Of a stretch of 3,361 nucleotides of DNA, positions 1 through 3,361 are shown in pieces; the stretch's first letter is position 1, and each line of letters begins with the position of its first letter. Location: the sequence record PZ195121.1. One strand, 5' to 3'. Both the position numbers and the translations under genes were made by a program. Under the pieces are notes generated by a model. That model worked only from the letters and a program-made list of their open reading frames with translations. It had not been told where the DNA came from and did no database searches. Origin of the DNA: a phage.

Positions 1-51
1 TACCATGCCGTCAGGTTTAGGTGACGGTATATTCCATATACCGGAGGATCT
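1..51 (+). other. 5' untranslated leader (partial) upstream of the maturation gene, with stem-loops
   Basis: Seen in sequence: no convincing ORF with an RBS; potential hairpins CCGUCA(8-13)/UGACGG(22-27) and GGUAUAU(26-32)/AUAUACC(36-42, loop UCC) directly 5' of the Shine-Dalgarno. The two stems share G26-G27, so they are partly alternative folds. Window does not begin with the GGG typical of levivirus 5' ends, so the leader is probably incomplete. Confidence 0.6.
43..48 (+). promoter_or_regulatory. Shine-Dalgarno (GGAGGA) for the maturation protein gene
   Basis: GGAGGA at 43-48, followed by a 3-nt spacer and ATG at 52. Spacing is on the short side but acceptable. Confidence 0.6.
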
Positions 52-1224
52 ATGTTTCCGAAGTCAAATATCGATAGAAATTACAAGGTCAAACTTATCT
101 CTTACGACAAGAAAGGGAACCTTGTTTCCGACGACTCTTTCGAGCAAGTCGAAAACTATCTCTTTCAAAATCGTTCGAGTACGTATAAACCTGGTTATAT
201 CCGTCGCGACTTTCGAAGACCGACTAACTTTTGGAACGGCTTTCGCTGTTTCAACCAGCCAGTTGGTACCTTCACTCGGAAACTCTCTGATGGTGGGAGA
301 CAAGTTGCTGATTACGGCATTGTGAACCCTAATAAGTTCACTGCCAACAGTCAGCACTTGGGGGACAACATGGTAATTTACCCTGGTCCTTTCTCTATAA
401 ATATTGATCAGCGTGCTTCTGTCGAAGTCCTCAATAAGCTTTCACAATCGAACCTCAATATTGGGGTTGCAATTGCTGAAGCTAAGATGACTGCGTCATT
501 ACTCGCTAAACAATCTATAGCTCTCATCAGAGCCTACACTGCTGCAAAGCGCGGTAATTGGCGAGAGGTGTTTTCTCAACTCCTCATCTCCGAACACCGT
601 TTCAGAGCTCCTGCTAAGGATCTCGGAGGTCGATGGCTCGAACTGCAGTACGGTTGGTTACCCCTTATGAGCGATTTGAAAGCTGCATATGATTTGCTGA
701 CGCAAACCAAACTGCCTGCTTTCATGCCCTTGAGGGTCACCCGCACCGTTGGCGGAACGCACAGTTATAAAGTGCGCAACGTCGAATCTGCAGGGGATAC
801 TTGGTCCTATAGCGATCGTTTGTCGGTGAATTACCGAATATGGTATTTCATTTCCGATCCACGTCTCGCATGGGCTAGTTCCCTCGGGCTTCTTAACCCT
901 TTAGAAATTTATTGGGAAAAGACGCCTTGGTCGTTCGTTGTTGACTGGTTCTTACCTGTCGGTAATCTTATAGAAGCCATGAGTAATCCTCTTGGCCTCG
1001 ACATTATTTCCGGCACGAAGACCTGGCAACTTGAATCAAAACTCAATGCAACGCTTCTGGCTCCGGGCTGGTCTGGAACTGCAAAGTTGTCTGCATACGC
1101 GAAAGCATATGACAGATCTACTTTCTATTCCTTTCCCACCCCTTTGCCTTACGTGAAATCTCCACTTAGTGGTCTTCACTTAGCGAATGCATTGGCCTTA
1201 ATCAACCAACGCCTGAAAAGGTAA
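52..1224 (+). CDS. mat: Maturation protein (A protein; pilus-binding, RNA-attached virion protein)
   Basis: 390-aa ORF ending TAA (1222-1224). It is the first gene, directly upstream of an unmistakable levivirus coat gene, and the size matches group I/II levivirus A proteins (about 390 aa). RBS GGAGGA upstream. Function assigned by position, size and family context, not by a recognised motif. Confidence 0.88.
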
Positions 1225-1228
1225 TTAC

Positions 1229-1232
1229 GGAG
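1229..1232 (+). promoter_or_regulatory. Shine-Dalgarno (GGAG) for the coat gene
   Basis: GGAG at 1229-1232, 8 nt upstream of ATG 1241. The start codon lies in a small self-complementary element GCCAUAUGGC (1236-1245). Confidence 0.65.
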
Positions 1233-1240
1233 TTAGCCAT

Positions 1241-1633
1241 ATGGCAACTTTACGCAGTTTTGTACTCGTCGATAATGGCGGTACGGGGAATGTTACTGTC
1301 GTTCCTGTTAGCAATGCCAACGGCGTCGCTGAGTGGCTTTCTAATAACTCGCGCAGTCAAGCTTATCGCGTGACTGCCAGTTATCGTGCGTCAGGCGCGG
1401 ACAAGCGCAAATACACCATCAAACTTGAAGTGCCGAAGATCGTCACTCAAGTTGTAAACGGTGTTGAGCTGCCTGTTTCCGCATGGAAGGCTTACGCCTC
1501 TATTGACCTGACCATCCCTATCTTTGCTGCAACCGACGATGTGACCGTTATTTCCAAGTCACTCGCTGGTCTGTTCAAAGTTGGGAACCCTATCGCTGAC
1601 GCCATCTCTTCTCAGAGTGGCTTCTACGCATAA
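1241..1633 (+). CDS. cp: Coat (capsid) protein, levivirus group II (GA-like)
   Basis: 130-aa ORF, MATLRSFVLVDNGGTGNVTVVPVSNANGVAEWLSNNSRSQAYRVTASYRASGADKRKY...TIPIFAATDD...GNPIADAISSQSGFYA. Shows the conserved levivirus coat signature (FVLVDNGGTG, NGVAEWLS.NSRSQAY, ELTIPIF-like, GNPI) and is near-identical to my recollection of the phage GA coat protein. Single TAA stop with a second stop 2 codons downstream, so no read-through extension. Confidence 0.95.
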   Translation: MATLRSFVLVDNGGTGNVTVVPVSNANGVAEWLSNNSRSQAYRVTASYRASGADKRKYTIKLEVPKIVTQVVNGVELPVSAWKAYASIDLTIPIFAATDDVTVISKSLAGLFKVGNPIADAISSQSGFYA

Positions 1634-1824
1634 TGGGTCTGAAAGCAAAACATAAGGAAAACCTATGTTCCGATTCACAGAGGTCGAAAAGACTCTATGT
1701 ATGGATCGCACTCGCGATTGTGCTGTCCGATTTCACGTCTATCTTCAGTCATTGGATTTGGGGTCTTCTGATCCTCATTCTCCAGACTTTGATGGACTTG
1801 CCTACCTTCGTGATGAATGTTTAA
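1633..1824 (+). CDS. lys: Lysis protein (L-type single-gene lysis protein), overlapping coat stop and replicase start in a third frame
   Basis: 63-aa ORF whose ATG overlaps the coat stop (UAAUG at 1631-1635). Basic N-terminal region (KAKHKENL...RSKR) followed by a hydrophobic helix-like segment (LYVWIALAIVLSDFTSIFSHWIWGLLILILQTL) that contains an LS dipeptide, as in MS2 L. Position and size match the known lysis gene of group II leviviruses. Confidence 0.8.
   Translation: MGLKAKHKENLCSDSQRSKRLYVWIALAIVLSDFTSIFSHWIWGLLILILQTLMDLPTFVMNV
1649..1669 (+). promoter_or_regulatory. Coat-protein-binding translational operator hairpin at the replicase start (also the likely packaging signal)
   Basis: AACAUAAGGAAAACCUAUGUU folds as stem 1649-1653/1665-1669, bulged A1654, stem 1655-1657/1662-1664, tetraloop AAAA 1658-1661. 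The replicase AUG (1665-1667) is in the 3' arm and the SD (AGGA, 1655-1658) is in the stem/loop. Architecture matches the MS2/GA operator (bulged purine plus 4-nt A-rich loop). Confidence 0.85.
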
Positions 1825-3263
1825 CTAAACACCCCTCACTTGGAGACAGTAATTCGGACGCACGCCGTAAGGAATTGGCATATGCCAAACTTATGGATAG
1901 TGATCAAAGATGCAAAATCCAAAACAGTAACGGATACGACTACTCTCATATCGAGAGTGGCGTACTGAGTGGTATACTCAAGACCGCTCAGGCCCTTGTG
2001 GCGAACTTGCTTACGGGTTTTGAATCTCACTTCCTGAACGATTGTTCATTCTCCAATGGAGCCTCACAAGGGTTCAAGTTGCGGGATGCAGCGCCGTTTA
2101 AGAAGATCGCTGGGCAAGCAACCGTTACAGCTCCTGCTTATGACATTGCCGTGGCCGCCGTTAAAACGTGCGCACCGTGGTATGCTTATATGCAGGAAAC
2201 GTATGGCGATGAGACCAAATGGTTTCGTCGGGTATACGGCAACGGTTTGTTTTCTGTTCCGAAGAACAATAAAATAGATCGGGCTGCCTGTAAGGAGCCT
2301 GATATGAATATGTACCTTCAGAAAGGGGCGGGTTCTTTTATAAGAAAACGCCTTCGTTCTGTCGGTATAGATCTTAACGATCAAACGTGCAATCAGGAAT
2401 TAGCCCGACTTGGCAGCATTGATGGTTCACTTGCTACTATTGATCTTAGTAGCGCTAGTGATTCTATCTCTGACCGCCTCGTCTGGGATTTACTTCCACC
2501 GCACGTTTATTCATACCTCGCTCGTATTCGTTCGTCTTTCACTATGATCGACGGACGGTTACACAAGTGGGGTCTATTTTCTACCATGGGCAATGGCTTT
2601 ACATTCGAACTCGAGTCCATGATCTTTTGGGCTCTAAGTAAGAGTGTTATGCTATCCATGGGTGTTACTGGCTCATTAGGCATCTACGGTGATGATATAA
2701 TCGTCCCCGTTGAGTGTGCCCCGACCCTCCTTAAGGTACTATCCGCCGTAAACTTTCTTCCAAATGAAAAGAAGACGTTTATAACGGGTTACTTTCGTGA
2801 GAGTTGTGGTGCTCATTTCTTTAAAGGTGCCGACATGAAACCTTTTTACTGCAAGCGGCCAATGGAAACCCTTCCCGATGTCATGTTGCTTTGCAACAGG
2901 ATAAGGGGTTGGCAGACCGTTGGTGGAATGTCAGATCCGCGGCTCTTTCCTATTTGGAAGGAGTTCGCTGATATGATTCCGCCGAAGTTTAAGGGTGGAT
3001 GTAACCTAGATCGCGACACTTACCTCGTTTCGCCGGATAAACCCGGTGATACATTGGTTCGTATCGCTAAGGTACGCTCTGGTTTTAACCATGCGTTCCC
3101 GTACGGTCATGAAAGTGGCCGTTACGTCCATTGGTTACATATGGGATCGGGAGAAGTTCTCGAGACCATATCCTCCGCCAGGTTCAGGTGCAAACCTAAC
3201 TCGGAATGGAGAACACAGATCCCTCTATTTCCACAGGAATTAGAGGCCTGCGTTCTCTCCTGA
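1665..3263 (+). CDS. rep: RNA-dependent RNA polymerase (replicase beta subunit)
   Basis: 532-aa ORF. Catalytic YGDD motif (LGIYGDDIIVP; GDD codons at 2688-2696, in frame). Last and largest gene in canonical levivirus order. Tandem stops UGA-UAG at 3261-3266. Confidence 0.95.
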   Translation: MFRFTEVEKTLCMDRTRDCAVRFHVYLQSLDLGSSDPHSPDFDGLAYLRDECLTKHPSLGDSNSDARRKELAYAKLMDSDQRCKIQNSNGYDYSHIESGVLSGILKTAQALVANLLTGFESHFLNDCSFSNGASQGFKLRDAAPFKKIAGQATVTAPAYDIAVAAVKTCAPWYAYMQETYGDETKWFRRVYGNGLFSVPKNNKIDRAACKEPDMNMYLQKGAGSFIRKRLRSVGIDLNDQTCNQELARLGSIDGSLATIDLSSASDSISDRLVWDLLPPHVYSYLARIRSSFTMIDGRLHKWGLFSTMGNGFTFELESMIFWALSKSVMLSMGVTGSLGIYGDDIIVPVECAPTLLKVLSAVNFLPNEKKTFITGYFRESCGAHFFKGADMKPFYCKRPMETLPDVMLLCNRIRGWQTVGGMSDPRLFPIWKEFADMIPPKFKGGCNLDRDTYLVSPDKPGDTLVRIAKVRSGFNHAFPYGHESGRYVHWLHMGSGEVLETISSARFRCKPNSEWRTQIPLFPQELEACVLS

Positions 3264-3361
3264 TAGTATCAGGACCTCCCCGGACGGGGTGGGTGTGACC
3301 GAAAGGCCACTATGGAGGTGAATCCTCCACCGCCCAAAAGGCGGTTATCGGTGACTAGTTT
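3264..3361 (+). other. 3' untranslated region (probably truncated) with multiple stable stem-loops
   Basis: Seen in sequence: hairpins CCUGA(3259-3263)/UCAGG(3269-3273) enclosing the replicase stop, CCCC(3278-3281)/GGGG(3286-3289) with loop GGAC, GGAGG(3314-3318)/CCUCC(3324-3328), and ACCGCC(3329-3334)/GGCGGU(3340-3345) with loop CAAAA. Window ends ...GACUAGUUU rather than the ...CCCA 3' terminus expected for leviviruses. Confidence 0.6.

What the first reader, a model, noticed from the sequence alone, without database searches (positions are those of the whole stretch)
1633..1824. 63-aa overlapping lysis protein with basic N-terminus, hydrophobic helix and LS dipeptide
Single-gene lysis proteins of ssRNA phages are compact and fully embedded in other genes. 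This one overlaps the replicase N-terminal coding region for 160 nt in a different frame, so both proteins constrain the same nucleotides. The LS dipeptide inside the hydrophobic segment (AIVLSDF) is reminiscent of the conserved motif reported for MS2 L.
Basis: partly seen in the sequence, partly recalled or inferred. Interest (0 to 1): 0.5.

Follow-up and report, generated by a model that had tools for sequence, protein, structure and literature searches.

The report
Lysis gene of GA-type RNA phage

Summary
The window is a nearly complete genome of a group II levivirus (Emesvirus japonicum, the GA/BZ13/KU1 group). It is 95.9% identical in nucleotides to BZ13 strain DL20. ORF 1633-1824 lies exactly where the lysis gene is annotated in GA, in three BZ13 strains and in KU1, and it is 97-98% identical to those proteins. 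It passes Pfam's own threshold for Phage_MS2_lysis. It is the only long alternative-frame ORF kept open in all six group II genomes. Replicase wobble positions vary at 7.5% inside the overlap against 45% elsewhere. The start codon shares the UAAUG junction with the coat stop codon, and in GA this junction drives translation strictly by termination-reinitiation. The KU1 homologue has been expressed as a toxic L-like lysis protein in E. coli. Verdict: already known, low interest. Minor corrections: the gene is not fully embedded, because 31 nt are intergenic, and the conserved zone extends past its stop codon.

The parts
1633..1824 (+). Lysis gene L (sgl): 63 codons plus TAA
   Evidence: ORF found. 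It matches the annotated lysis CDS of GA, BZ13 and KU1 at 97-98% aa identity. Pfam PF11125 scores above its gathering cut-off. It is open in all six group II genomes.
1631..1635 (+). UAAUG junction: the coat stop codon UAA (1631-1633) overlaps the L start codon AUG (1633-1635) by one base. This is the termination-reinitiation site.
   Evidence: Read directly from the sequence. The same junction is present in GA, DL20 and DL10. In GA, L is translated only by ribosomes that have terminated on the coat gene, and there is no SD sequence (PMC9955659).
1601..1621 (+). Hairpin at the end of the coat gene, 11 nt upstream of the L start. The GA record annotates it as a potential lysis-gene control structure.
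   Evidence: GA feature 1683-1707 corresponds to window 1599-1623. It folds at -9.7 kcal/mol, z = -3.47, and 0 of 200 shuffles fold as well.
1649..1669 (+). Replicase translational operator hairpin (coat-protein binding site). It contains the replicase AUG at 1665 and lies inside L codons 6-13.
   Evidence: GA feature 1733-1753 corresponds to window 1649-1669. It folds as a stem with a bulged A and a 4-nt loop, -4.2 kcal/mol, z = -2.43. It is invariant in all six genomes.
1633..1692 (+). L domain 1: basic N-terminal region (residues 1-20, net charge +4)
   Evidence: It aligns with the last part of the longer basic N-terminus of MS2 and fr L.
1693..1722 (+). L domain 2: hydrophobic stretch LYVWIALAIV (residues 21-30) preceding LS
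   Evidence: L21, Y22, V23, I25, L27, A28 and I29 are invariant across group I and group II L proteins.
1723..1728 (+). L domain 3: Leu31-Ser32 (CTG TCC), homologous to MS2 L48-S49
   Evidence: Invariant alignment column in all 8 L proteins compared. Both codons are invariant at the nucleotide level in the six group II genomes.
1729..1821 (+). L domain 4: C-terminal hydrophobic region (residues 33-63), divergent from MS2 and carrying the second hydrophobicity peak
1665..1824 (+). Dual-coding segment where L and replicase codons 1-53 overlap. Replicase third codon positions are L second codon positions.
   Evidence: Replicase third positions vary at 4 of 53 sites here against 216 of 479 in the rest of the gene, Fisher p = 1.5e-8. 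This is the lowest of all 53-codon windows in the replicase gene.

Best explanation
ORF 1633-1824 is the lysis gene L (a single-gene lysis protein, 'L-like' or type II Sgl) of a group II F-specific RNA coliphage of the species Emesvirus japonicum (GA/BZ13/KU1). How it is expressed (shown for GA in the literature, inferred here from the identical sequence): the gene has no ribosome-binding site of its own. Ribosomes that finish the coat gene at UAA are released, and a fraction rebind at the overlapping AUG of UAAUG. L is therefore made at a fixed low ratio to coat protein and accumulates late in infection. How the protein works (inferred by homology to MS2 L and KU1 Sgl): the basic N-terminal 20 residues stay in the cytoplasm. 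The hydrophobic C-terminal 43 residues, with the conserved LYV.I.LAI.LS.FT core, insert into the inner membrane as a helix and oligomerise. This causes lesions in the envelope and autolysis without blocking net peptidoglycan synthesis. The molecular target is unknown even for MS2 L. Because 160 of its 192 nt also encode replicase residues 1-53, and its codons 6-13 also form the coat-binding operator hairpin, the segment is under double or triple constraint and is almost invariant among strains.
For: The whole window is 94.4-95.9% identical to GA, BZ13 DL10 and DL20, and 85-86% identical to KU1 and T72, with the same gene order. The L ORF coincides with the annotated lysis CDS in all five relatives and is 97-98% identical in amino acids. 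Pfam Phage_MS2_lysis scores 29.3 bits against a cut-off of 25, and phrog_8450 gives E = 1.2e-32. BLASTP against MS2 L gives E = 6e-10. The LS dipeptide and the flanking hydrophobic residues are invariant across group I and II. The charge and hydropathy layout matches the four-domain L model (model described in PMC10229422, and bioRxiv 10.1101/2023.10.16.562596). A helix is predicted with pLDDT 84-95 over residues 21-63. L is the only alternative-frame ORF of at least 60 aa open in all six genomes, and the 18+3-nt insertions in KU1 and T72 keep the frame. Replicase wobble variability is 7.5% in the overlap against 45% elsewhere, p = 1.5e-8, and wobble changes resume at 1832, 1835, 1841 and 1844, directly after the L stop. 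L residues 17-48 are invariant in all six strains. The UAAUG junction is present, and its coupling mechanism has been shown in GA (PMC9955659). KU1 Sgl was used as a toxic L-like Sgl in E. coli, with a complex suppressor profile like that of MS2 L (PMC10229422).
Against: Nothing found here contradicts the explanation, but there are three caveats. First, no lysis assay exists for this exact sequence, and the exact 63-aa protein is not in the 15-billion-protein collection. Second, low nucleotide variability is not exclusive to the L overlap. The stretch 1876-1940 beyond the L stop and the coat-gene start at 1201-1380 are equally invariant, so RNA structure or other constraints contribute, and the synonymous-site test alone does not prove L coding. 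Third, the L-like layout does not guarantee the L mechanism, because PP7 Sgl has the same layout yet targets MurJ.
Confidence: 0.96

Rival explanations
1. The ORF is a chance open frame. Its conservation reflects only replicase coding plus RNA-structure constraints (operator hairpin, long-range interactions) at the 5' end of the replicase gene.
For: Six other non-gene ORFs of at least 60 aa occur in the window. Invariant stretches also exist outside the ORF, at 1876-1940 and 1201-1380.
Against: The protein sequence is homologous to MS2 and fr L, although nucleotide similarity to group I in this region falls below megablast detection. All control ORFs are broken in at least one relative, while L is open in all six, and the KU1 and T72 insertions are multiples of 3. 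The GA and KU1 homologues have been studied experimentally.
Confidence: 0.01
2. It is a lysis protein with the L-like layout, but it acts as a type I 'protein antibiotic' that inhibits a peptidoglycan-precursor step such as MurJ, as PP7 Sgl turned out to do.
For: The significance of the LS motif as a marker of mechanism was questioned after PP7 Sgl, which has the same domain layout, was mapped to MurJ.
Against: Unlike PP7 Sgl, this protein is a true sequence homologue of MS2 L. MS2 L does not block net PG synthesis. [quoted passage not shown]
Confidence: 0.03

Closest known systems
Lysis protein of phage GA (CAA27498, X03869 1717-1908) and of BZ13 strains DL20 and DL10 (ACT66727, ACT66719)
   Same: Same genomic position, same length (63 aa), same UAAUG coat-stop/L-start junction and the same 160-nt overlap with replicase. 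Amino-acid identity is 97-98%.
   Different: The differences are one or two substitutions. Q51 here is R in DL20. N62 here is S in DL10. Q16 and I49 here are E and Y in GA. The window's sequence equals the group II consensus.
Sgl of phage KU1 (AAF67675) and L of BZ13 strain T72 (ACT66723)
   Same: 97% identical, with an identical core over residues 7-50 or more. KU1 Sgl has been tested experimentally as a toxic L-like Sgl in E. coli (PMC10229422).
   Different: KU1 and T72 have an 18-nt insertion that splits the UAAUG junction, a UUG start codon and one extra codon (64 aa). In those phages coupling must work across a spacer of about 17 nt. The window has the compact GA-type junction.
MS2 L (75 aa) and fr L (71 aa), group I Emesvirus zinderi; Pfam PF11125
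   Same: Homologous: 38-43% identity, E = 6e-10. They share the block KH.. C...QRS..LYV.I.LAI.LS.FT, which includes the LS motif. They occupy the same position between coat and replicase, have the same basic N-terminus and hydrophobic C-terminus, and their translation is likewise coupled to coat termination.
   Different: The N-terminal basic domain here is 12-16 residues shorter. The gene starts at the coat stop codon rather than 50 nt (MS2) or 38 nt (fr) upstream of it, so it does not overlap the coat coding sequence. The C-terminal 25 residues are not recognisably similar. DnaJ dependence, which maps to the MS2 N-terminal domain, may not apply.

Membership tests
MS2-type lysis protein L (Pfam PF11125 Phage_MS2_lysis) | Sequence match to the family profile above the curated gathering score | tested here: met
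   29.3 bits against a cut-off of 25, E = 8.9e-7, residues 6-37. BLASTP against MS2 L gives E = 6e-10.
MS2-type lysis protein L (Pfam PF11125 Phage_MS2_lysis) | Gene lies between coat and replicase and overlaps the replicase start in a different frame | tested here: met
   L is 1633-1824 in frame 1 and replicase is 1665-3263 in frame 0, giving a 160-nt overlap. The layout is the same in GA, BZ13, KU1, MS2 and fr.
L-like (type II) Sgl four-domain architecture (Chamakura et al. 2017, as summarised in PMC10229422) | Domain 1: positively charged N-terminus of variable length | tested here: met
   Residues 1-20 hold 6 K/R against 2 D/E, net +4.
L-like (type II) Sgl four-domain architecture (Chamakura et al. 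2017, as summarised in PMC10229422) | Domain 2: hydrophobic stretch immediately preceding the LS motif | tested here: met
   LYVWIALAIV at residues 21-30. The Kyte-Doolittle 19-residue mean is 1.77 for residues 21-39. The stretch is conserved with MS2 and fr.
L-like (type II) Sgl four-domain architecture (Chamakura et al. 2017, as summarised in PMC10229422) | Domain 3: conserved Leu-Ser dipeptide | tested here: met
   L31-S32 is invariant in 8 of 8 aligned L proteins and aligns with MS2 L48-S49.
L-like (type II) Sgl four-domain architecture (Chamakura et al. 2017, as summarised in PMC10229422) | Domain 4: variable C-terminal region | tested here: met
   Residues 36-63 diverge from MS2 and fr but are conserved within group II.
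L-like (type II) Sgl, functional definition | Expression of the gene alone lyses the host | not testable with these tools
   This needs an experiment. The 97%-identical KU1 Sgl was used as a toxic Sgl in E. coli (PMC10229422).
L-like (type II) Sgl, functional definition | Lysis occurs without inhibition of net peptidoglycan synthesis (distinguishes type II from type I) | not testable with these tools
   Reported for MS2 L. I found no published measurement for a group II L protein.
L-like (type II) Sgl, functional definition | Dependence on the chaperone DnaJ through the N-terminal domain | not testable with these tools
   Shown for MS2 L only. The authors note that domain 1 is not conserved among L-like Sgls, so the dependence may not hold. 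The N-terminus here is 17 residues shorter than that of MS2 L.
GA-type coat-lysis translational coupling | UAAUG junction in which the coat stop and L start overlap, with no Shine-Dalgarno sequence | tested here: met
   The sequence GCAUAAUGGGU at 1628-1638 is identical in GA, DL10 and DL20 except at one wobble base. Its function has been shown in GA (PMC9955659).
Emesvirus japonicum (group II F-specific RNA coliphages) | Genome-wide nucleotide identity and the gene order mat-coat-L-rep | tested here: met
   94.4-95.9% identity to GA, DL10 and DL20 over all 3361 nt. The gene lengths of 390, 130, 63 and 532 aa are identical to those of GA.

The most novel reading that the evidence does not exclude
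The GA-type L protein may work somewhat differently from MS2 L. It has a much shorter basic N-terminus, which could make it independent of DnaJ. Its 43-residue hydrophobic tail has two hydrophobicity peaks (21-39 and 42-60), which could form either a helical hairpin or one very long tilted helix. In that case group II phages would offer a minimal natural L variant for finding the still unknown L target. Separately, the fully invariant 65-nt stretch at 1876-1940, just past the L stop, could be an undescribed cis-acting RNA element of group II phages.
Probability: 0.12. Interest if true: 0.3.

Novelty: already known. Interest (0 to 1): 0.07.

Why it matters
It matters little as a discovery. The lysis gene of group II RNA coliphages has been annotated since the GA genome record (X03869). 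Its translational coupling to the coat gene is a model system (PMC9955659). The KU1 homologue has been screened genetically (PMC10229422). The result is useful as a positive control for the scan, because a reader working from raw sequence alone correctly recognised an overlapping single-gene lysis protein and its LS motif. The only open biology is the one that applies to the whole family, namely that the molecular target of L is still unknown.

Tried and rejected
Rfam at gathering thresholds found no family in the window, so the operator and the 3' structures are not covered. An exact-sequence look-up of the 63-aa protein in the 15-billion-protein collection found nothing. This probably reflects gene callers skipping small overlapping genes and the one-residue differences from known strains, not novelty. 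Three primary papers could not be read because they are not held: Chamakura, Edwards and Young 2017, the L mutational analysis (PMC5775895); Chamakura, Tran and Young 2017, on DnaJ (PMC5446614); and Inokuchi et al. 2000 EMBO J (PMC313962). Their content is cited only through papers that summarise them. ORF length as evidence was rejected, because six comparable chance ORFs exist. ORF 1840-1968, in the same frame as L just downstream, was considered as an explanation for the conserved stretch beyond the L stop. It was rejected because its start is lost in DL20 and DL10 and it has internal stops in KU1 and T72. The large homology searches (search for homologous proteins, the search of protein representatives, metagenome scans) were deliberately not run, because the identification was already unambiguous.

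Full report
WHAT THE WINDOW IS. The 3361-nt window carries four genes on the + strand: a 390-aa ORF (52-1224), a 130-aa ORF (1241-1633), the 63-aa ORF in question (1633-1824) and a 532-aa ORF (1665-3263). Megablast against annotated phage records matches the whole window to group II F-specific RNA coliphages of the species Emesvirus japonicum. Identity is 95.9% to BZ13 strain DL20, 94.9% to DL10, 94.4% to GA, and 85-86% to T72 and KU1. Those records annotate maturation protein, coat protein, lysis protein and replicase with the same lengths and order. Relative to DL20, the window lacks about 77 nt at the 5' end and about 20 nt at the 3' end.

CHECK OF THE OBSERVATION. The ORF runs from ATG 1633 to TAA 1822-1824 and encodes MGLKAKHKENLCSDSQRSKRLYVWIALAIVLSDFTSIFSHWIWGLLILILQTLMDLPTFVMNV. 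The 160-nt overlap with replicase (1665-1824) in a different frame is correct. Residues 1-20 carry 6 Lys/Arg against 2 Asp/Glu. Residues 21-63 carry no Lys or Arg and show two Kyte-Doolittle peaks above the classical 1.6 threshold (1.77 for 21-39 and 1.78 for 42-60). A single-sequence AlphaFold2 model is one long helix (residues 3-62) with pLDDT 84-95 from residue 21 onward. That prediction is weak evidence on its own but is consistent with a helical membrane peptide. The LS dipeptide is L31-S32. There are two small corrections. The gene is not fully embedded, because nt 1634-1664 lie in the coat-replicase spacer and only one base is shared with the coat stop codon. LS also sits at the C-terminal edge of the first hydrophobic stretch rather than in its middle.

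IS IT MORE THAN CHANCE? ORF length alone is not informative, because the window holds six other non-gene ORFs of at least 60 aa. I aligned the six group II genomes and used those ORFs as controls. Each control is broken in at least one relative by internal stops, a lost start or a frameshift. The L frame is open in all six, and the 18-nt and 3-nt insertions in KU1 and T72 preserve it. Replicase third codon positions, which are L second codon positions, vary at 4 of 53 sites in the overlap against 216 of 479 in the rest of the gene (Fisher p = 1.5e-8). No other 53-codon window of the replicase gene is as invariant: the lowest elsewhere has 8 variable sites and the mean is 25. Wobble changes resume directly after the L stop, at 1832, 1835, 1841 and 1844. 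L residues 17-48, which include the hydrophobic core and LS, are invariant in all six strains. The substitutions fall at residues 3, 16, 49, 51, 61 and 62.

There is a caveat to this conservation argument. Two other stretches are equally invariant: 1876-1940 beyond the L stop and the coat-gene start at 1201-1380. Constraints other than L coding therefore also act in this central region. The conservation argument is supportive but not sufficient by itself.

HOMOLOGY. The protein is 97-98% identical to the annotated lysis proteins of GA, BZ13 DL20, DL10 and T72, and KU1. It scores 29.3 bits against Pfam PF11125 (Phage_MS2_lysis), above the curated cut-off of 25, and E = 1.2e-32 against phrog_8450. 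BLASTP against MS2 L gives 41% identity over 51 residues, E = 6e-10. In the 8-sequence alignment, H7, C12, R17, S18, L21, Y22, V23, I25, L27, A28, I29, L31, S32, F34 and T35 are invariant. L31-S32 aligns with MS2 L48-S49.

EXPRESSION. The coat stop and the L start form UAAUG (1631-1635), as in GA, DL10 and DL20. Inokuchi and colleagues showed for GA that the lysis gene has no Shine-Dalgarno sequence. It is translated exclusively by ribosomes that have completed the coat gene. Those ribosomes are released by ribosome recycling factor (RRF) at UAA, and about 25% rebind at the AUG in their reporter system (PMC9955659). In group I phages the L start lies 50 nt (MS2) or 38 nt (fr) upstream of the coat stop, and coupling involves hairpin unfolding and/or scanning. 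A hairpin annotated in GA as a possible lysis-control element is present at 1601-1621 (-9.7 kcal/mol, z = -3.5). The replicase operator hairpin, which is the coat-protein binding site, lies at 1649-1669, inside L codons 6-13. KU1 and T72 carry an 18-nt insertion exactly inside the UAAUG and use UUG as the start codon.

MECHANISM. The following is inferred by homology and was not tested here. MS2 L is a membrane protein whose C-terminal half is sufficient for lysis. Its basic N-terminal domain binds the chaperone DnaJ in a regulatory role. It oligomerises through its transmembrane domain and causes envelope lesions without stopping net peptidoglycan synthesis. Its target is unknown. KU1 Sgl, 97% identical to the present protein, was toxic in E. 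coli. [quoted passage not shown] I therefore assign the present protein to the L-like (type II) class with high confidence. The short N-terminus (20 residues before the LYV core, against 37 in MS2 L) leaves DnaJ dependence open.

COMPARISON AND NOVELTY. All sequence-level defining features of the MS2 L family and of the four-domain L-like architecture were tested and met. The functional features (lysis on expression, no block of PG synthesis, DnaJ dependence) cannot be tested with these tools. This exact 63-aa sequence is not on record, but it differs by only one or two residues from annotated proteins and equals the group II consensus. The feature is already known. The window is at most a new strain of a known species.

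VERDICT. Novelty is 'already known' and interest is low (0.07). The one unexplained item seen in passing is the fully invariant stretch 1876-1940 downstream of the L stop. It is not accounted for by any conserved ORF. The surrounding 1825-1940 segment has a predicted structure of -25.7 kcal/mol with z = -2.5.

Noticed in passing
window 1876-1940: This 65-nt stretch of the replicase gene lies 50 nt or more past the L stop and is 100% invariant in all six group II genomes, with 0 of 22 wobble positions varying. Flanking regions differ by 15-28 nt per 120 nt from KU1 and T72. ORF 1840-1968, in the same frame as L, is not conserved. The 1825-1940 segment folds at -25.7 kcal/mol with z = -2.47. It may be a cis-acting RNA element or part of a long-range interaction.
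   Followed up: partly
window 1201-1380: The start of the coat gene and its upstream spacer are nearly invariant, with 1-6 differences per 120 nt even against KU1 and T72. This is the least variable 160-nt stretch in the genome (6 variable sites at 1229-1388). It presumably reflects the coat initiation structure, but this was not examined.
   Followed up: no
L003 (KU1) 1718-1735 and L005 (T72) 1628-1645; aligns between window 1633 and 1634: KU1 and T72 carry an 18-nt insertion exactly inside the UAAUG coat-stop/L-start junction, plus a 3-nt insertion that adds one codon after residue 5. The annotated L start becomes UUG and is separated from the coat stop by about 17 nt.
   Followed up: partly
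window 1683: The window has G at this position where all five relatives have A. The change is silent in L (Arg17) but changes replicase residue 7 from Ile to Val.
   Followed up: yes
window 5-325 (+): This 106-aa ORF overlaps the 5' UTR and the start of the maturation gene. It is open only in the window and DL20 and is frameshifted with 4-8 stops in GA, DL10, KU1 and T72, so it is a chance ORF.
   Followed up: yes
window 1-3361 versus L002 (DL20) 78-3438: The window is a near-complete genome that lacks about 77 nt of the 5' end and about 20 nt of the 3' end relative to BZ13 DL20. Rfam has no family matching any part of it at gathering thresholds.
   Followed up: no
L001 (GA X03869) CDS 1717-1908: The GA record's note says 'put. 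lysis protein (aa 1-64)', but the CDS is 192 nt, which is 63 codons plus a stop. This is a minor annotation slip in the public record.
   Followed up: yes
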